This document shows, one piece after another, positions 104 through 10,770 of a stretch of DNA of 32,257 nt (position 1 is the first letter of the stretch; each line of letters starts with the position of its first letter). Origin of the DNA: a virus (taxonomy: Duplodnaviria; Heunggongvirae; Uroviricota; Caudoviricetes); IMG/VR virus record IMGVR_UViG_2541047777_000015, one strand, 5' to 3'. The notes beneath the pieces were generated by a model. The model saw nothing but the letters and a program-made list of their open reading frames with translations. It ran no database searches and was not told the DNA's origin. Both the position numbers and the translations under genes were made by a program.

Positions 104-114
104 TGGATTTGCCC

Positions 115-1020
115 CTATATTTCCAGACATCTGTTATCACTTAACCCATTACAAGCCCGCTGCCGCAGATATTCCCGTGGCGAGCGATAACCCAGCGCAC
201 TATGCGGATGCCATTCGTTATAATGCTCGAACGCCTCTGCAAGGTTCTTTGCTGCCGTTAACCCGTCTGGTTTGGGCATGATACTGATGTAGTCACGCTT
301 TATCGTTTTCACGAAGCTCTCTGCTATTCCGTTACTCTCCGGACTCCGCACCGCCGTGTTCTTCGGTTCAAGTCCCAACATCCGGGCGAACTGGCGTGTT
401 TCATTAGCCCGGTAGCATGAACCATTATCCGTCAGCCACTCCACTGGAGACGACGGAAGATCGTTGCCGAAGCGGCGTTCCACCGCTCCCAGCATGACGT
501 CCTGTACTGTTTCACTGTTGAAGCCGCCGGTAGTGACCGCCCAGTGCAGTGCCTCACGATCACAGCAGTCCAGCGCGAACGTGACACGCAGTCTCTCTCC
601 GTTATCACAGCAGAACTCGAACCCGTCAGAGCACCATCGCTGATTGCTTTCTTTCACGGCCACTCTGCCTGTATGTGCCCGTTTCGATGGCGGTACAGCA
701 GGTTTTCGCTCAAGCAACAGCGCATTCTGGCGCATGATCCGGTAAACACGTTTGGCATTGATCGCAGGCATACCATCAAGTTCTGCCTGTCTGCGAAGCA
801 GCGCCCATACCCGACGATAACCATACGTGGGCAGCTCTCCGATAACATGGTGTATACGGAGAAGCACATCCGTATCATCAGTGTGACGACTGCGGCGGCC
901 ATCCATCCAGTCATCGGTTCGTCTGAGAATGACGTGCAACTGCGCACGCGACACCCGGAGACAACGGCTGACTAAGCTTACTCCCCATCCCCGGGCAATA
1001 AGGGCGCGTGCGCTATCCAC
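115..1020 (-). CDS. insD: IS2 transposase OrfB (InsD), DDE integrase-core protein
   Basis: 301-aa ORF with retroviral-integrase-like motifs ([17 protein letters not shown]). Its 5' end overlaps insC at an A6G slippery run (minus strand, plus coords 1020-1026) typical of IS3-family -1 frameshift fusion. Confidence 0.85.
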
Positions 1021-1343
1021 TTTTTTGCCCGTCCATATTCAACGGCTTCTTTGAGGAGTTCATTTTCCATCGTTTTCTTGCCGAGCAGGCGCTGGAGTTC
1101 TTTAATCTGCTTCATGGCGGCAGCAAGTTCAGAGGCAGGAACAACCTGTTCTCCGGCGGCGACAGCAGTAAGACTTCCTTCCTGGTATTGCTTACGCCAG
1201 AGAAATAACTGGCTGGCTGCTACACCATGTTGCCGGGCAACGAGGGAGACCGTCATCCCCGGTTCAAAGCTCTGCTGAACAATTGCGATCTTTTCCTGTG
1301 TGGTACGCCGTCTGCGTTTCTCCGGCCCTAAGACATCAATCAT
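978..1343 (-). CDS. insC: IS2 OrfA (InsC), HTH DNA-binding transposase component
   Basis: 121-aa [29 protein letters not shown]... The track ORF (978-1388) is trimmed to the ATG at 1343. Confidence 0.85.
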
Positions 1344-1434
1344 CTGTTCTCCAATGACTAGTCTAAAAACTAGTATTAAGACTATCACTTATTTAAGTGA
1401 TATTGGTTGTCTGGAGATTCAGGGGGCCAGTCTA

Positions 1435-1439
1435 GGCTG
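1435..1439. repeat. IS2 target-site duplication (GGCTG), right copy
   Basis: Second copy of the 5-mer, immediately outside the IS2 end at 1434. Confidence 0.8.
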
Positions 1440-2910: not shown

Positions 2911-3746
<836 letters not shown>

Positions 3747-3809
3747 CTTATAATCCCTACTAGTTAGCATTATGATTTCCAGAGTGAGGAATATAAAAAT
3801 CTCTGTTTC

Positions 3810-3891
3810 TGGCACATAACAGCCCTTAAGATCGTAGCTCGCCATCATGGGGTGTCGGGGGGCGGAGGTTCAAATCCTCTCGTGCCGACCA
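3810..3891 (+). tRNA. tRNA-Pro-like partial/degenerate copy (3' half canonical), probable att-site copy, not a functional tRNA
   Basis: 3845-3891 reads TCATGGGGTGTCGGGGGGCGGAGGTTCAAATCCTCTCGTGCCGACCA: anticodon-loop-like AUGGGGU, T-arm GGAGG/TTCAAAT/CCTCT, acceptor 3' strand and CCA, matching my recollection of E. coli tRNA-Pro(GGG). The 5' part (3810-3844) only loosely resembles a tRNA 5' half (no D-arm, extra bases), so no cloverleaf forms. Confidence 0.55.
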
Positions 3892-3904
3892 AAAATCCCT
3901 TAAG

Positions 3905-3931
3905 AACCAGCCTATTATGGCTGGTTTTTTT
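3905..3931 (+). terminator. rho-independent terminator
   Basis: AACCAGCC-TATTAT-GGCTGGTT stem-loop followed by a run of 7 T, directly downstream of the tRNA-like 3' end. Confidence 0.75.
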
Positions 3932-4071
3932 ATGATTGTTTTTTATGCGGAGAAATACCGGGGAATAATTGGGGTAAAACACCTTTAGGCTATTCACTTA
4001 GCCTACCACCATCAAAATCTTTCCGAATGTATCCATCTCTTTTTTCTTATGCAGCTAAAACGAAGTCTTGA

Positions 4072-4119
4072 TACTGTTTATTTACACAGATAAGAATAAT
4101 ACTGTCTACAAACGCAGTA
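4072..4119 (+). promoter_or_regulatory. tandem LexA (SOS) boxes in the dinI-like promoter region
   Basis: TACTGTTTATTTACACAGAT (4072-4091) and TACTGTCTACAAACGCAGTA (4100-4119) both fit CTGT-N8-ACAG / CTG-N10-CAG. A TTGATA -35-like hexamer lies at 4067-4072. Confidence 0.65.
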
Positions 4120-4132
4120 CAAAAGAAGTGTT

Positions 4133-4311
4133 ATGCGTATTGAGATCTCCATAGCCAAAGACAAAATGACCAAATGCCAAACGGCGCTGTGGACGCGTTA
4201 AAGGAAGAATTAACCCAACACATTGGCAAGCGTTATGACGATGTGGAGATGATCGTAAAAGCCACCAGCAACGATAGTTTTTCAGTTAGACATACTGCAG
4301 ATAAAGATTGA
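4133..4311 (+). pseudogene. dinI-family (DNA-damage-inducible protein I-like) gene, frameshifted and C-terminally short
   Basis: ATG 4133 gives [22 protein letters not shown] (stop 4199-4201). A second frame from 4174 gives [45 protein letters not shown] (stop 4309-4311). Joined, they align with DinI (MRIEVTIAKTSPLPAGAIDALAGELSRR...), implying a 1-nt indel near 4165-4175. Confidence 0.6.
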
Positions 4312-4735
4312 GCTAAAACTTTCGTTCAGGAAACTCTGAATGATACCTGAGAGTCTACTGAAGAGTTGTTTGTTCACTAGTTAGCACGTAGGAAATCATT
4401 CAATACTCGCACTATCGGAAGTTCACCAGCCAGTCGTAGCACGTCCTTGCAAACGACGTGCCTACGGTTTCAATCACCTCTCACCATCAATTCTATCAAT
4501 AATAATTAAACAGCGCCTAGACAAAATAAATAACAACAAGTCAACAACCTCGACAGGATGCCGATGGGATGATGAAGAGATAAGAAAGAATAACCAGTAA
4601 AGCCCTAAAACGTCAGCGTTCAGACGCGTTTTTTACTTAATCGGTAACAAATACGTTGTATCATAGCAAAATAAAATGATTGTTCTAAATCAGATTAACT
4701 CCTCACTTTTGTACAATGTCGCTTACAGGTATACC

Positions 4736-6625
4736 ATGAAATCCGAGACGCTAACTGTCCAACAACTTTTTCAAGACCGCCGACAATACTGTGTTCCATT
4801 CTATCAACGTGCCTATGTATGGACTCAGCAAGACCAGTGGTCAGCTCTACTGGAGGATATCCTAGAGAAAGTACAATCCCGGCTCTCGGGTACAAAACCA
4901 ACTCCCCATTTCCTTGGTGCGGTTGTACTGGAACCTCAATCAAAAAAAGGATTATTAGGTGTAGATTCCATACATATTATTGATGGTCAGCAACGATTGA
5001 CCACTCTTCAATATGTTCTGGCATCCATCCGATTAGCATTACGTGCTACGGATCTTTCCAGCTTAGAGGCTCTCATTTCGCCTTGCCTGAAAAACTCAAA
5101 CGAAGACACAATGCGAAATAAAGAAGTAGAACGCTTCAAACTGTGGCCAACTTTTCGGGATCAAACTCATTTTATTCAAAGTTTTAATGTTGAAAATATT
5201 GACGATCTCCGGGACGTATTCTCTGATAGTTTCACGCAGCATGGTACGTTGCGTAAGCATTTTAATCACCCGCCATCACTAGAAGCATTATGTTTTTTTA
5301 CTGAAGCCTTTATAAAATGGATTAAAATAGAAAACCACTCACCACAAGAAAATGCTGTAGCTCTAATTGAGGCTGTCTTAACAGATCTGAAACTGGCAAG
5401 CATATTTCTCGAAGCTGAAGATGATGCCCAAATAATTTTTGAAACATTAAATGGGCGAGGGGCGGAACTTCATGCTACGGATCTTATTCGCAACTATATC
5501 TTTATGTGCGCTGAGCATGAAAATATTAATGCTATTGAATTATATGAAAATGAGTGGAAGAGCTTTGAAGATAAATACTGGTCGGAAAAACAACGCCGTG
5601 GACGTATTAATAAACCACGCATGGAGTGGCTAGTACATGCGACATTGCAATCAGAAAGGCAACGTGAAATTGATCTGTCTCGCCTTTACAATGAGTATCG
5701 TGATTATGTAAGTAAGGACTTGTCTTCACAACGAGCAGATCTGCAAGTAAAGCGCCTCAAACAATATGCATCACAATATAAAGAATTGGTTGATGGTTTT
5801 GGCACAACCCCCATCTCACACTTTGGATATCGCATCGCAGACTATGATGTGACGACACTTTATCCGCTTGCTTTGTTCATTTCGATAGCTAACATCGCTG
5901 ATGATGAGAAAGCAGCCATGTATAATGATCTTGTCTCCTACGTAGTACGAAGAGCCGTATGTGGCCTGACGCCAAAGAATTACAACAATGTATTTATGAA
6001 TGTATTGCGGCACTTGGCTAAAACGGAAATTTCCAGTGTTGAGTTACGTAATATCCTCAATAACTTAAATGGCGAAGCCTCACGTTGGCCTGGTGACTCA
6101 GAATTTCTCAACGCTTGCATCAATGCTCCACTTTATCCTGGCAGGCTCGACGCACCGAAAATGCGCTCAATGTTAACGGAACTTGAAAGAGAACTTTGTC
6201 GCCAAGTAAAGACAGAAAAGCCTGATGTTCCAAATCTTTCTAATCTCGATATCGATCATCTTATGCCTCAAAGTTGGTATTCCTGTTGGCCTCTCGAAAA
6301 TGGTCGTATGGTGACAAATTCAGATGCTACGGTATTGAACCAAATTGTTCTGTCTGGAACCGATCTTACCCCTGAACAGCTACTGGTAAGGAAACGGCAA
6401 CAAGCGATATCTACTTTGGGAAATCTAACTTTGCTTAACCTTAGCGTAAACCGTTCTGTTCAGAATGCTGTATTTCTGAAAAAACGTGATGCTCTCATCG
6501 TCCACACCAATCTACGACTGAACATTCCACTTATAGTTAAGGATAAATGGGATGAGGATGAAATCCTGGAGCGGGGTAAAAAGTTGGGGGAAATTGCATT
6601 GAAAGTATGGCCAAAACACGATTAA
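4736..6625 (+). CDS. GmrSD-family type IV (modification-dependent) restriction endonuclease, DUF262 (ParB-like NTPase) + DUF1524 (His-Me finger)
   Basis: 629 aa. N-terminal DUF262 motifs (YCVPFYQRAYVW; IIFETLNGRGAELHATDLIRNYIF) and C-terminal DUF1524-like motifs (DIDHLMPQSW; LGNLTLLNLSVNRS). ATG at 4736 with AGG 7 nt upstream; the track ORF starts at 4676. Confidence 0.85.
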   Translation: MKSETLTVQQLFQDRRQYCVPFYQRAYVWTQQDQWSALLEDILEKVQSRLSGTKPTPHFLGAVVLEPQSKKGLLGVDSIHIIDGQQRLTTLQYVLASIRLALRATDLSSLEALISPCLKNSNEDTMRNKEVERFKLWPTFRDQTHFIQSFNVENIDDLRDVFSDSFTQHGTLRKHFNHPPSLEALCFFTEAFIKWIKIENHSPQENAVALIEAVLTDLKLASIFLEAEDDAQIIFETLNGRGAELHATDLIRNYIFMCAEHENINAIELYENEWKSFEDKYWSEKQRRGRINKPRMEWLVHATLQSERQREIDLSRLYNEYRDYVSKDLSSQRADLQVKRLKQYASQYKELVDGFGTTPISHFGYRIADYDVTTLYPLALFISIANIADDEKAAMYNDLVSYVVRRAVCGLTPKNYNNVFMNVLRHLAKTEISSVELRNILNNLNGEASRWPGDSEFLNACINAPLYPGRLDAPKMRSMLTELERELCRQVKTEKPDVPNLSNLDIDHLMPQSWYSCWPLENGRMVTNSDATVLNQIVLSGTDLTPEQLLVRKRQQAISTLGNLTLLNLSVNRSVQNAVFLKKRDALIVHTNLRLNIPLIVKDKWDEDEILERGKKLGEIALKVWPKHD

Positions 6626-6649
6626 TGCAATTAATAAAATGATTATAGT

Positions 6650-6669
6650 GGCCTTACATTAGTAAGGCC
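6650..6669. terminator. stem-loop downstream of the GmrSD-like gene (possible terminator)
   Basis: GGCCTTAC-ATTA-GTAAGGCC, 8-bp stem. No clean T-run on the plus strand; A/T-rich flank on the minus strand. Confidence 0.4.
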
Positions 6670-6720
6670 GCTACTCACTATTAAATACTTTAATTTGCAT
6701 CAAGAACAGCAGTGTCAGCC

Positions 6721-6849
6721 CTAGGTCTCGGACTTTGTACCGCTTATCTTGTCTTCAAAAATCAGCTCGCATCCTGCACAGTTCAGCGCATTACGTTGTA
6801 GATCTGTGTTCTGGTCATTTGTTGACACACGTACATAGCCAATAAGCAT
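6721..6849 (-). pseudogene. pin: Pin/Gin/Hin-family DNA invertase (serine recombinase), N-terminal 42-codon remnant
   Basis: Minus-strand ATG at 6849 encodes MLIGYVRVSTNDQNTDLQRNALNCAGCELIFEDKISGTKSET*, matching the invertase N-terminus including the catalytic-serine motif YVRVSTNDQ. The frame stops at 6721-6723; the remaining ~140 codons are absent. Confidence 0.8.
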
Positions 6850-6875
6850 GGTAGATCTCCCTGACAAAAGCAGGA

Positions 6876-7370
6876 ATGATGCCATTTGCTCGTTATTTCT
6901 GCATTTTCATAAACGTTGGTTTGGGAGAAGCCTCAAAATTGAATGTGGGTATGCCGGAAAAACGGCCCCCTGATATGCCGCTCTCAACCGGTATGAGATG
7001 CAATGGAGAGTCTTTTTTTGCTGAAGAAGACGGGCAAATGGCTAAGGCTTATACGGTAAATATATGGCGTGCAGTGGGTGTTGAGGTTATTCCTGGTTGT
7101 GATTATGGGCGCACCGGTTATTCTAGGTGTTCTGTTCCCTCAACAACATTGCCCTCTGTAGTTCCTAATAATGTGCTGGTAGTTATCCCTTCGGGATCTA
7201 CAAGCGCTTATGGTGCTAAATTTACCGATACTGCAGGTTTTGAAGCGACGAGGGGTAATATTATTGCCAGCAACGGGAGGGATCATTCCATTTTGTTCAA
7301 AGTCGCCATAACCCTGATTGCAGCCCGTCCTCGCGACATTAGAGTCAACTCTATCGTGATTGGAGGGTAA
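6876..7370 (+). CDS. alternative tail-fibre variable C-terminal segment (S'v-like) inside the invertible segment
   Basis: The ORF begins in the left crossover repeat; residues VGLGEASKLNVG repeat the [12 protein letters not shown] encoded at the end of the constant tail-fibre ORF. It can only be fused to the constant part after inversion. Confidence 0.55.
   Translation: MMPFARYFCIFINVGLGEASKLNVGMPEKRPPDMPLSTGMRCNGESFFAEEDGQMAKAYTVNIWRAVGVEVIPGCDYGRTGYSRCSVPSTTLPSVVPNNVLVVIPSGSTSAYGAKFTDTAGFEATRGNIIASNGRDHSILFKVAITLIAARPRDIRVNSIVIGG
6904..6929. repeat. hix/gix-like inversion crossover site (left, inverted relative to 8831-8856)
   Basis: Reverse complement TTCTCCCAAACC-AA-CGTTTATGAAAA resembles the 26-bp hix consensus TTATCAAAAACC-AA-GGTTTTTGATAA. 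A ~45-bp inverted repeat with 8805-8848 shares a 16-bp identical core TTGGTTTGGGAGAAGC. It lies ~55 bp upstream of the pin remnant. Confidence 0.6.
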
Positions 7371-8830
7371 TGGATAAAGCAATATTCTATAGACGCGTTA
7401 GTACAACAATTGAACTGCATGTTTTGTTTTATAAATATGAGGATGAAGGTCCGCATCATAATGACATTTTAAAAAAATATCTTGCAGTAGGTGAGCATTT
7501 CCCGGGACTTTCCCGACTAGGTACAGAAGGTAGCCATGACGCTGCTGGTGGTCTATTTCGGTTTATGTCTCTACCTTCATCGGAAGAGGATCAGGTGTAT
7601 ACGGGTGAAATCGTCAAAATATCCTAGGTGTGAGAATTAAAAACATACACCACACCCGGTCAGTACCCTGACAATACTGCCACTGTTCGCCCATTAGCCG
7701 CATAAGATGAGTAAGATGGTTCGAGGCGGGATTCCCAGGCTGCACCGGAGCTTATCGATGCAGTCTACGCGGCAGAAGTAGAATGGCATTCACCTCTGGC
7801 TGCTGCAGTCAGTTGCAATCCTGCGCTTTGGCTGTATTTATTGCCCGGACGGAATCAGTTTAATGCAGAACAAAGTTGAGCTGGGTTTTTTCTGGATGAC
7901 ATAGACGCGGTGCCGGCAACAAATTCCGGCGAATCAGACGGAGGCAACCGACTTGAGCTGCAGGAAGTGTCGGACGTTCAATTTCTGGCGCGTATACTGC
8001 GGCGATCTGTTCTGCCGCAGCAACGGACTCCAACCTCTCATCATACTACTTATCGTACTCCCTTATCGGAGGAACAGTGGTAGCATTGTCAGGGCACTGA
8101 CCGGTTGCTATGAAGGGATTGACTTCTGAAGTCTAAGAGATATAGACGATTTCAGCGGGCTGGTCTTCCACATATTTCCAAGAAGTTGGAGTCTCAGACC
8201 GTAATGTCGGATATCAACCGTCATGTCCAATTGGTTTCCCTAGTGAGTGCAGTGCAGGAAATCGATCACATATGTCTATAGTATTTCTAGTAATAGCAAC
8301 AGAATGCGTTGTCTCACCATCATAGTCATGAACGATATCATCCACTTCCTTTCTAGTAACTACGGGTGTAATGAATACTGCTTTCTTCATTACCCTGCAC
8401 TCATTAACTAGTTGACGGCGATGTCGCAAGGAAAGGTAGCGTCCGGTTTAATGGCCACTGTACACACCACGGACTTGTTATCCCTGTTAGCAACGATAGT
8501 GTAAACCGCCGTCGCTCAAATACCTGCTAAATTACTGGATACACCACCATAAGCGGTTGAAGTTCCCAGGGGGATAACTAGCACCACATAAATAGTAACT
8601 ACAAATGGCACTTTTGTTGAGGCCACAGAACGCCTTTTATAAACTGCGCGCCCATCATCCCAATCAGTAATTCACTTCCCAGCCAATTGACGCAATATAC
8701 TTGCCGTAACCACCTTTGTCAGTTCCGGGTAAGGTTCAGGAATAACAGAAGTACCGTTGCAATTCGGACCCCCCGTGGAAGACGTGTCTGAAGGTCATTG
8801 AACACGGATACCAACATTTAATTTTGCCGC
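6930..8830. other. invertible tail-fibre segment (G/P-segment-like), largely decayed
   Basis: Bounded by the inverted hix/gix-like sites. Contains the S'v-like ORF and a small ORF on the plus strand; the minus-strand region 7630-8795 has only short, stop-interrupted frames. Confidence 0.55.
7370..7627 (+). CDS. hypothetical protein (85 aa), possibly a tail-fibre assembly chaperone remnant
   Basis: ATG overlaps the stop of the S'v-like ORF (TAATG), which is the usual position of a tail-fibre assembly gene. No family recognised. Confidence 0.4.
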   Translation: MDKAIFYRRVSTTIELHVLFYKYEDEGPHHNDILKKYLAVGEHFPGLSRLGTEGSHDAAGGLFRFMSLPSSEEDQVYTGEIVKIS

Positions 8831-9133
8831 TTCTCCCAAACCAAGGTTTTCGAGAGCCGTTTTCACCGTGCCGTCCGATTTGATATCGCTAAACGGATTC
8901 TTGCGGCTTAACAGCAGCGCACGAAGCGCGGTAAGCAGCTGGTCGTGCCGCGCCTTCTCCAGACTGGCACCGGATGCCTCCACCACGCTGCAGAGTTCTT
9001 CCTGCAACATGTCAAAGTAGTCATCATCCAGATCGGTGGCAGGCGTGCCTGTCTGGGGGTTACCACGGGTAAAACCGTTCTTACCCGCGCCGAACTTATC
9101 CTTCTGCGCGGTTTTCGTGTCTATACGATGCAT
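8795..9133 (-). CDS. tail-fibre protein, constant N-terminal part (Sc-like), ending 13 codons inside the invertible segment
   Basis: 112-aa ORF with RBS GGAG 8 nt upstream. It follows the DUF2313 and baseplate genes in Mu/e14 order. The C-terminal [15 protein letters not shown] is encoded by the crossover repeat, with a stop immediately after. Confidence 0.65.
8831..8856. repeat. hix/gix-like inversion crossover site (right)
   Basis: TTCTCCCAAACC-AA-GGTTTTCGAGAG, 17/24 half-site matches to the hix consensus. Lies inside the 3' end of the constant tail-fibre ORF. Confidence 0.6.
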
Positions 9134-9136
9134 GGA

Positions 9137-9721
9137 TTACTCCGGATATTTAAAAATTACGTAGGTATGCGAAGGGCAGAGTTTGTTAAGCACACATTCG
9201 ACGACGGTGTCGCCCCAGATACGCAGCGCGGAATCACAGGGATCGCCACATGTCATCCAGGTGCTGTTGGTGGCGGCTGGCATGTTGACCTGCCAGTAAT
9301 ACCGCCATTCCGGCGCATTCACCGCGTCAGTACAGGCCGATGAGCAGGTGAACGTGCTTTTGTCGTATCGCGTGATGGTGGCGTCTGGTCTGCCCAGGGC
9401 AGCAAGCTGTGCAAGGTAAAAATCCTCATTGATGCCGCCCGCCAGGTTAACCTTCGCATCCAGTCGTTGCTGACGCTGGCGAAGGGTCTGTGTTCCTGCG
9501 GGAATACATTCATCCGGCAGGCCGCACAGACGCTCCCAGCGATTTATCAGTTCGGTGGTGGTGCGCGGATCCAGCTCCCGCATCAGGGCATCCGCACGCT
9601 GATGAACGCGGGTTAATGACTGTGCCGCACCGGCAATCGCCGGATCGCTGGCTGACCACGCCGGACCGGGCGGCAGCAGTGCCGACAACAGACGGATGTA
9701 ATCATCGTTTGTCACGCCCAT
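9137..9721 (-). CDS. phage tail protein, DUF2313 (Mu gp48 / e14 YmfQ-like)
   Basis: 194 aa, located between the baseplate J-like gene and the tail fibre as in Mu-type tail modules. Confidence 0.7.
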
Positions 9722-10770
9722 GAAATCGTCCCCAGAACCGCCAGTTCATTTTTTGCAATGGAGATATTTTCCGCCGGTGCAAGCAATTGATGGCTGTATT
9801 CCCCGTTCGCACCGGAAATCGCTTCACTGATACGCGACACCTTCAGTTCTCCCTGCGGATAACCATCACGCAGCAGGAACGAACGCAACTCCGCGGTGAT
9901 GGCAGCCCGTATTTCCGGTGTATCCGGCGTCACACGGATATGAAAATCCACCGTATGCGCCACCGGCCTGAACACATACAAATCAGAGCCTGCCACCGGG
10001 GCCAGTGGCCCGATATGTTGTCTTGCCGCCGTTTCCGTTGATTCTTCCGGAATGGGATTAATCAGGTCACTGCTGGCAATCATCACACCGACAGTCCCCG
10101 TTCCCATCCAGTGACGGTATGCCCATGCGCGGGTAATGCCGGGCAATTCTTTAGCCCAGACAACATAGTCCCCGTCAGCCCCGCCCTGAGGCGTCCAGTA
10201 ATACCGCTCAATGACGCGGGCGCGCCACGTTTCCAGCTCTTCAGTATCAAATCCACCTGTCAGAGTGTCTGCCACGCCGGAAGACGGCAGACCATTAACC
10301 GGCGTGACCAGGATTAATGACGTACCGTCGTCAGCGTTACCGACCGCGCCTGCACTTGAGCAGGCGATCGGCACGCGCAGGACACCACCGGCGCTGGTTG
10401 CATCGGCAGTTGCCGTGTACTGAATCAGGTCATCGCGCTGAATAACACTCCCGGCGGTCACCTTCAGGCCATCGCTGACGCCTTCCCAGCGCATATACCC
10501 GCTGGCAGTCGTGGCCCCCTTGCGCGGACACCGTTTCATCGCAGCATGTCGCGCCAGCCAGGACTCATCGCACAGGTCAGGCAGCATGTTCATTGCCAGA
10601 TAATCGATGTACCCGTAAACCGTATGCAGCGCCGCCGCATACACCTTTGCCCGCACGTCTTCATCCATGCGCCGGAGCGTGTCGCTGACGTCCAGCCTGG
10701 CGAATAAATCGTTACGGAGCATACTGATATTTTCTGCCAGCGTCGGGCGCTGAAATTCACTGTCCGCCAT
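9712..10770 (-). CDS. baseplate J-like protein (Mu gp47 family)
   Basis: 352 aa; position and size fit the baseplate wedge J family; overlaps neighbours as in an operon. Confidence 0.75.

What the first reader, a model, noticed from the sequence alone, without database searches (positions are those of the whole stretch)
6904..8856. Invertible tail-fibre segment is in an orientation that truncates the fibre, and one arm has decayed
Inverted hix/gix-like sites (6904-6929, 8831-8856) flank ~1.9 kb. The constant tail-fibre ORF ends 13 codons past the right crossover site, giving a 112-aa product with no distal domain. The opposite orientation would fuse it to the 164-aa S'v-like ORF at the left end. 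Minus-strand sequence from 7630 to 8795 has only short interrupted frames, suggesting the resident variable arm is pseudogenised. The prophage probably cannot make a complete fibre as it stands.
Basis: partly seen in the sequence, partly recalled or inferred. Interest (0 to 1): 0.55.

Follow-up and report, generated by a model that had tools for sequence, protein, structure and literature searches.

The report
Assembly blend of invertible fibre segment
The "truncated, decayed" tail-fibre switch is not biology: between two genuine e14-type recombination sites the deposited sequence is a random base-by-base mix of the segment's two orientations, each of which is intact in other E. coli genomes.

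Summary
The inverted 26-bp sites are real and are identical to the two crossover sites of the e14 P segment of E. coli K-12. The 112-aa stub, the 164-aa ORF and the broken minus-strand frames are also literally present. The interior, 6917-8843, is not a biological sequence. The rest of the window matches E. coli UTI89 apart from 12 SNPs and an IS2. Inside the segment it differs at 673 positions, with no indel. At all 673 the base is the one the inverted segment would have, mirrored about the centre of the crossover dinucleotides. Of 1359 informative positions, 686 follow one orientation, 673 the other and 0 neither, with statistically independent picks. Both pure orientations occur in complete genomes (111 and 43). 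Each encodes an intact 247-aa fibre and its chaperone. The window comes from the draft assembly of E. coli HVH 126. A sister assembly, UMEA 3893-1, carries an independent blend of the same locus, and two more (HVH 12, HVH 217) carry blend-compatible proteins there. No arm has decayed and there is no truncating orientation. The assembly collapsed what was probably a mixed-orientation culture. The underlying system is a known P-type switch whose own pin gene is cut to 41 codons, so it must be flipped in trans.

The parts
6904..6929 (.). Left 26-bp crossover site (pix-type), central dinucleotide at 6916-6917
   Evidence: Identical to one e14 P-segment site in K-12. The mirror axis of the blend (x <-> 15760-x) maps 6916/6917 onto 8844/8843.
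8831..8856 (.). Right 26-bp crossover site (pix-type), central dinucleotide at 8843-8844, inside codon ~97 of the fibre gene
   Evidence: Identical to the other e14 P-segment site. Near-palindromic half-sites TTCTCCCAAACC / CTCTCGAAAACC.
6917..8843 (.). Invertible segment as deposited: a per-base random blend of the two orientations, not a biological sequence
   Evidence: 1359 informative positions: 686 in UTI89 orientation, 673 inverted, 0 neither. All 568 uninformative positions match. Runs test z=0.41. Interior is 62% self-reverse-complementary, against 28% in UTI89.
8844..9133 (-). Constant N-terminal part of the tail-fibre gene (aa 1-97), genuine sequence
   Evidence: 100% identical to UTI89. 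98% identical to the SfV orf21 / short tail fibre 5' end, and that homology stops at 8822.
8390..9133 (-). Slot of the real expressed fibre gene: 247 aa in either true orientation, read as a 112-aa stub (8795-9133) in the blend
   Evidence: Reconstruction and translation. Annotated CDS in UTI89 (WP_000554665.1) and GPEC128-620 (WP_000554664.1). The F arm has Phage Tail Collar PF07484. The R arm has a weak Gp53-like_C hit.
6879..7370 (+). Slot of the silent alternative arm. The blend gives a chimeric 163/164-aa ORF, deposited as EQR46902.1
   Evidence: 43% identical to the F arm at protein level. No Pfam hit. Present on a single contig in the protein collection.
7370..8390 (.). Slots of the two convergent tail-fibre assembly (chaperone) genes: TfaE 200 aa and Tfa 147 aa, both destroyed in the blend
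   Evidence: In F: 7373-7816 (+) and 7788-8390 (-). In R: 7370-7972 (+) and 7944-8387 (-). Both are Caudo_TAP PF02413. The blend has 4-5 stops in each.
6724..6849 (-). Remnant of the pin invertase gene, 41 codons identical to PinE then a stop
   Evidence: Resolvase N-terminal profile positions 2-47 of 145. 41/41 identical to K-12 PinE, and nucleotide homology to e14 begins at 6727. RefSeq annotates it as 'recombinase family protein, incomplete'.
4676..6625 (+). GmrSD-type (DUF262) type IV restriction gene that abuts the truncated invertase. This is context, not part of the switch
   Evidence: Pfam GmrSD_N and GmrSD_C.

Best explanation
The locus is a genuine e14-type P segment. Two pix sites in inverted orientation bracket 1.93 kb. 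That stretch carries two alternative C-terminal fibre arms, each with its own chaperone gene, downstream of a constant 97-codon fibre exon. The adjacent pin gene survives only as 41 codons, so flipping needs a Pin-type invertase supplied in trans. The sequence between the crossover points in this window (E. coli HVH 126, GCA_000457835.1, scaffold KE700007.1) is a consensus artefact. The two equal-length orientations were superimposed column by column, and one of the two bases was kept at random at every column where they differ. The stub fibre, the broken chaperone genes and the chimeric 164-aa ORF are products of that blend. Shown: the blend, its axis, its randomness, its recurrence in sister assemblies, and the intactness of both pure forms. 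Inferred: the sequenced culture held both orientations, and the assembler's handling of per-site ambiguities produced the mix.
For: The window equals UTI89 except for 12 SNPs and an IS2 outside the segment. Inside 6932-8829 there are 673 mismatches, no indel, ts/tv 0.50 and run lengths equal to the iid expectation. All 673 mismatches equal the inverted UTI89 base at mirror x<->15760-x, and shifted axes give chance level. The picks are 686 F, 673 R and 0 neither, they are iid, and mirror positions are independent. GPEC128-620 carries the exact inversion of the UTI89 interior. The F form occurs in 111 complete genomes and the R form in 43. Both forms give intact 247-aa fibres and Tfa genes. The blend ORFs are deposited as HVH 126 proteins, each found on one contig only. 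UMEA 3893-1 has the same locus blended independently: 697 F, 662 R, 0 neither, with 678 picks the same as HVH 126 and 681 different. The HVH 12 and HVH 217 proteins are 100% codon-compatible with a blend. Cultures with about 50% of reads in the alternative orientation, and trans inversion of a segment with a truncated invertase, are documented for E. coli EC958 (PMC4134206). ALLPATHS-LG encodes per-site 'local ambiguities', including mixed sites in the sample (PMC3483556).
Against: I could not inspect the reads, so the mixed culture is an inference. That these Broad assemblies were made with ALLPATHS-LG is my recollection and is not verified here. How exactly an assembler aligns two 28%-identical paths without gaps and flattens them is not documented in what I read. 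The 164-aa and 85-aa plus-strand ORFs both staying open has a simulated probability of only 0.5%. That is a mild coincidence and was selected post hoc.
Confidence: 0.95

Rival explanations
1. One reading: the segment sits in an orientation that truncates the fibre, and the resident arm is a decaying pseudogene.
For: Stops and short frames are present in the deposited letters.
Against: The flanks are 100% identical to UTI89 while the interior is 35% different. There are no indels in 1.9 kb, ts/tv is 0.50 and there is no codon-position bias. Every difference equals the inverted copy. The same locus is blended differently in UMEA 3893-1.
Confidence: 0.01
2. The interior is a genuinely divergent allele, a different fibre/chaperone cassette swapped in by recombination at the crossover sites, as is common in tail-fibre mosaicism.
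For: The divergence starts and ends at the crossover sites. Cassette exchange is well known for these loci (Sandmeier 1994, as cited in PMC4134206).
Against: A real cassette would have open reading frames, Pfam domains and relatives. Here there is no Pfam hit, and each blend ORF sits on a single contig in the ~15-billion-protein collection. The 44-mer taken from the blend has no exact match in genome or metagenome contigs. Zero of 1359 informative sites need a third base.
Confidence: 0.01
3. The blend is a pure software artefact from a culture in a single orientation. In that case it carries no information about flipping.
For: Interior k-mers are identical for both orientations, so a graph assembler could in principle traverse the segment both ways.
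Against: The repeat arms are only 42 nt. Ordinary reads therefore span the junctions and fix the orientation unless both junction types are present. Both orientations are frequent among related genomes, and about 30-50% mixtures are measured in cultures (PMC12529663; PMC4134206).
Confidence: 0.12

Closest known systems
P segment of cryptic prophage e14 (stfP-tfaP / tfaE-stfE, pinE) of E. coli K-12
   Same: Both 26-bp crossover sites are identical. The first 41 Pin residues are identical. The gene order ymfQ - fibre - tfa - tfa' - silent arm - pin - type IV restriction gene is the same. One arm plus tfaE is 89-95% identical at nucleotide level.
   Different: The invertase is truncated after codon 41. 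The second arm (weak Gp53-like_C hit) is not e14's StfP arm. The sites are 1927 bp apart here and 1827 bp apart in e14. The segment sits in a complete SfV/Mu-like-tailed prophage at ssrA rather than in e14. GmrSD takes the place of McrA.
Phi4 prophage of E. coli EC958 (PMC4134206)
   Same: It is a tail-fibre invertible segment with a severely truncated invertase that is nevertheless found in both orientations in one culture, so it is inverted in trans. It also caused assembly anomalies.
   Different: There the PacBio assembler produced a separate spurious contig for the alternative orientation. Here the two orientations were merged base by base into one sequence.
G segment/Gin of phage Mu, C segment/Cin of P1, Hin/hix of Salmonella
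   Same: All are serine-invertase systems with 26-bp sites and a 2-bp central crossover. In Mu and P1 they switch fibre C-termini and chaperones (my own knowledge, plus the consensus quoted in PMC4134206).
   Different: The fibre sequences differ and those systems have an intact cis invertase. Dependence on the Fis/enhancer was not examined here.
PinQ-driven e14 inversion producing StfE2 (PMC12529663)
   Same: A Pin-family invertase from another prophage flips a P segment in trans. Both orientations are common in deposited genomes: 33% inverted there, and 43 of 154 (28%) here.
   Different: An anti-phage role for this segment's products is untested.

Membership tests
Din-family (Pin-type) invertible tail-fibre segment | Two 26-bp crossover sites in inverted orientation with matching central dinucleotide | tested here: met
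   Sites at 6904-6929 and 8831-8856 are identical to the e14 sites. The central dinucleotide reads TT and AA on the + strand, which is the same dinucleotide in inverted orientation.
Din-family (Pin-type) invertible tail-fibre segment | Adjacent full-length serine invertase (resolvase catalytic domain plus HTH) | tested here: not met
   Only 41 codons remain, covering profile positions 2-47 of 145. The segment is an orphan that depends on a trans invertase. A second pin-like 5' sequence exists in some carrier chromosomes, for example UTI89 with 2 places. The HVH 126 genome could not be searched.
Din-family (Pin-type) invertible tail-fibre segment | Constant fibre exon outside the segment, with two alternative in-frame C-terminal arms and cognate chaperones inside | tested here: met
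   Met for the two pure forms reconstructed from UTI89 and GPEC128-620: a 247-aa fibre in both, with TfaE 200 aa or Tfa 147 aa. Not readable from the window as deposited.
Din-family (Pin-type) invertible tail-fibre segment | The segment actually inverts | tested here: met
   Exact inversions of the same sequence behind the same truncated pin occur in 111 versus 43 complete genomes. The blends in at least two independent assemblies, with blend-compatible proteins in two more, imply mixed cultures; that step is an inference.
Din-family (Pin-type) invertible tail-fibre segment | Fis-dependent recombinational enhancer in cis | not tested
   190 bp of e14-homologous sequence is retained next to the left site. 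From memory, the enhancers of related systems lie in the 5' part of the invertase gene. I did not map one here.
Decaying pseudogene arm | Lineage-specific substitutions and indels with a natural spectrum that no other source explains | tested here: not met
   0 indels, ts/tv 0.50, flat codon-position counts. 673 of 673 differences equal the inverted copy.
Mixed-orientation consensus artefact | Every base equals one of the two orientations, the axis lies at the crossover, the register is perfect, and each assembly has its own version | tested here: met

The most novel reading that the evidence does not exclude
The blends record real cultures near a 50:50 orientation equilibrium in several clinical isolates. 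On that reading, an orphan P-type segment whose own pin is reduced to 41 codons is still flipped efficiently by a foreign invertase. It might then be retained next to a GmrSD gene because its fibre variants serve the host, for example by masking receptors as e14 StfE2 does.
Probability: 0.1. Interest if true: 0.4.

Novelty: not a real feature. Interest (0 to 1): 0.12.

Why it matters
Biologically the locus is ordinary. It is a known kind of phage host-range switch, and the identical sequence is present in more than 150 complete E. coli genomes. The value of this result is as a warning. At least two public draft assemblies (HVH 126 and UMEA 3893-1) carry a base-by-base blend of two orientations at this locus. 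Deposited proteins of two more (HVH 12 and HVH 217) are fully compatible with the same kind of blend. The resulting nonsense ORFs are deposited as proteins: EQR46902.1, EQR46903.1 (which is RefSeq WP_021531889.1 and has a UniRef entry) and EQR46905.1. Such regions mimic hypermutated or decayed genes. They can be recognised without a reference, because about 62% of the interior is reverse-complementary to itself between two crossover sites.

Tried and rejected
1. Simple inversion relative to UTI89. Rejected: the interior is 64% identical to each orientation, not 100% to one.
2. Reverse-only or complement-only mis-orientation. Rejected: identities of 26% and 12%.
3. Random in-silico mutation or hypermutation. 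This first looked right because of the iid run lengths and flat spectrum. It was rejected once every mismatch matched the inverted copy.
4. A deterministic rule for resolving ambiguities, such as picking the alphabetically first base. Rejected: both bases of every pair are chosen about equally.
5. A blend introduced by whoever prepared this window. Rejected: the blend ORFs are GenBank proteins and the GenBank scaffold matches the window exactly.
6. Exact search for a blended 44-mer in genome contigs and metagenome contigs. It found nothing.
7. DNA look-ups for the HVH 12, HVH 217 and HVH 111 proteins. None was on record. HVH 12 and HVH 217 were instead tested at codon level. The HVH 111 protein is not explained by this F/R pair.
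8. A literature search for a description of this exact artefact. It found related cases only.

Full report
**Observation.** An inverted repeat lies at 6911-6952 and 8808-8849 (42 nt, 88% complementary). It contains two 26-bp hix/gix-like sites at 6904-6929 and 8831-8856. There is a 112-aa minus-strand ORF at 8795-9133 and a 164-aa plus-strand ORF at 6876-7370. Only short frames lie between them. A 54-codon minus-strand ORF at 6721-6885 holds the N-terminus of a serine invertase, and a 649-aa GmrSD/DUF262 gene ends just upstream of it.

**Context.** The window is almost identical to E. coli UTI89 (NC_007946.1). It covers a prophage next to ssrA with Mu/SfV-like baseplate and tail genes. Outside the segment, and apart from an IS2 at 105-1435, the window differs from UTI89 at 12 positions in about 29 kb. 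In UTI89 the same interval holds four intact genes:
- a 247-aa fibre (minus strand);
- tfaE, 200 aa (minus strand);
- a 147-aa tfa (plus strand);
- a 163-aa silent arm (plus strand).
A pin remnant is annotated there as 'recombinase family protein, incomplete'.

**The anomaly.** Between 6932 and 8829 the window differs from UTI89 at 673 of 1898 positions, in perfect register and with no indel. All twelve substitution types are about equally common (ts/tv 0.50). Match and mismatch run lengths equal the expectation for independent events (observed 1.544 and 2.816, expected 1.549 and 2.820). Mismatches are flat across codon positions, and the reference frames carry 4-5 stops each. With flanks identical to UTI89, this cannot be neutral decay.

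**Resolution.** I compared the interior with the reverse complement of the UTI89 interior at a series of offsets. At one offset, mirror x <-> 15760-x, all 673 mismatching positions carry the base of the inverted copy. Every other offset gives chance level. The axis, 7880, maps the central dinucleotide of the left site (6916/17) onto that of the right site (8844/43). This is exactly the geometry of site-specific inversion at those sites. Of 1927 positions between the crossover points, 568 are the same in both orientations and all of them match. Of the 1359 informative ones, 686 follow the UTI89 orientation (F), 673 the inverted one (R), and none follows neither. The picks pass a runs test (z=0.41). 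They are independent between mirror positions and show no preference for a particular base. Without any reference, the interior is 62% self-reverse-complementary about that axis. UTI89 gives 28% and shifted axes give 25%.

**Both pure forms are real and intact.** Strain GPEC128-620 carries the exact inversion of the UTI89 interior, with 0 mismatches. Using queries that include the flanks, 111 complete E. coli genomes hold the F form and 43 hold the R form. Both forms give a 247-aa fibre at 8390-9133. The F arm has a Phage Tail Collar domain and is followed by TfaE. The R arm has a weak Gp53-like_C match and is followed by the 147-aa Tfa. Both chaperones are Caudo_TAP. The window's 112-aa and 164-aa products have no Pfam match. 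Because the two arms occupy the same frame in mirror positions, a blend keeps a 147-codon arm open 6% of the time in simulation. The open 164-aa ORF is therefore a modest coincidence.

**Provenance.** The blend-derived ORFs are deposited proteins of E. coli HVH 126 (4-6034225): EQR46902.1, EQR46903.1 (= WP_021531889.1) and EQR46905.1. Each is seen on one contig only among about 15 billion proteins. Scaffold KE700007.1 of GCA_000457835.1 matches window 3879-10370 exactly. A homology search with the chimeric ORF returned further unnamed proteins from sister assemblies, each cluster found on a single contig.
- In UMEA 3893-1 (GCA_000461775.1) the same locus is blended again: 697 F, 662 R and 0 neither. 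Its picks are independent of HVH 126 (678 the same, 681 different) and the flanks show a single mismatch.
- The HVH 12 and HVH 217 proteins are 100% codon-compatible with an F/R blend and about 50% identical to either pure arm.

The artefact is therefore recurrent in that set of assemblies.

**Likely origin of the artefact (inferred).** The repeat arms are only 42 nt, so reads span the junctions. An assembler should be undecided only if both junction types are present, that is, if the culture is mixed. Mixed cultures are well documented. About 50% of PacBio reads were in the alternative orientation in EC958 prophages, including one with a truncated invertase that was flipped in trans (PMC4134206). 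The e14 P segment is 30% inverted in wild-type K-12, 49% inverted with PinE overproduction, and is inverted in trans by PinQ (PMC12529663). ALLPATHS-LG represents unresolved positions as per-site local ambiguities, and it explicitly includes mixed sites in the sample (PMC3483556). Flattening such a series would give independent per-column picks. That these assemblies used ALLPATHS-LG is my recollection and I did not verify it.

**What the locus is.** Both 26-bp sites are identical to those of the e14 P segment. The invertase remnant equals PinE residues 1-41, and homology to e14 starts at 6727. The R form is collinear with e14's stfE-tfaE side at 89-95% identity. The constant exon is 98% identical to the 5' end of the SfV short tail-fibre gene, and that homology ends at 8822, beside the crossover. 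The underlying biology is therefore a known kind of host-range switch. Here it is orphaned from its invertase and sits next to a GmrSD restriction gene, in the position that mcrA holds next to pinE in e14.

**Verdict.** The identification as a Din-type invertible fibre segment is correct. The truncation, the decay and the conclusion that no fibre can be made are artefacts of a blended consensus. Biological interest is low. The practical interest is as a data-quality flag and as indirect evidence for trans-driven flipping.

Noticed in passing
window 105-1435: A complete IS2 (IS3 family; InsC/InsD ORFs on the minus strand) is inserted about 0.4 kb downstream of ssrA and is absent from UTI89. GPEC128-620 has an independent IS2 copy 52 bp away in the opposite orientation, so this spot may be a local insertion hot spot.
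   Followed up: partly
window 4676-6625 (with 6724-6849): A GmrSD-type (DUF262) type IV restriction gene directly abuts the truncated pin, in the position mcrA holds next to pinE in e14. Upstream lie a PD-(D/E)XK nuclease gene, a LEM-3-like GIY-YIG gene and a DinI pseudogene. Together they look like a defence-gene cargo region at the prophage end.
   Followed up: partly
window 30102-31297: Ten of the twelve SNPs against UTI89 cluster in 1.2 kb, in the DUF968 / KilA-N gene region. This suggests a small recombination patch rather than scattered mutation.
   Followed up: no
L006 (UMEA 3893-1, KE702650.1:760900-768193) 3539-5465; proteins P0033 (HVH 12), P0036 (HVH 217): The same locus is blended independently in a sister draft assembly, and deposited proteins of two more are fully blend-compatible. 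Each has yielded single-contig 'hypothetical proteins' in nr.
   Followed up: yes
protein P0130 (E. coli HVH 111, G772_02523, 129 aa): Another domain-less protein, found on a single contig in an assembly of the same project. It is only 61/128 compatible with this F/R pair, so it may be a blend of a different prophage's invertible segment.
   Followed up: partly
window 7370-7627 (+): The 85-aa blend-derived ORF has a RefSeq non-redundant accession (WP_021531889.1) and a UniRef100 entry. An artefactual protein has therefore propagated into curated databases.
   Followed up: partly
carrier genomes listed: Some chromosomes with the segment in the inverted form (APEC O1, PMV-1, GN06489) show no second pin-like 5' sequence at blastn sensitivity. 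The trans invertase may therefore be divergent, plasmid-borne or since lost.
   Followed up: no
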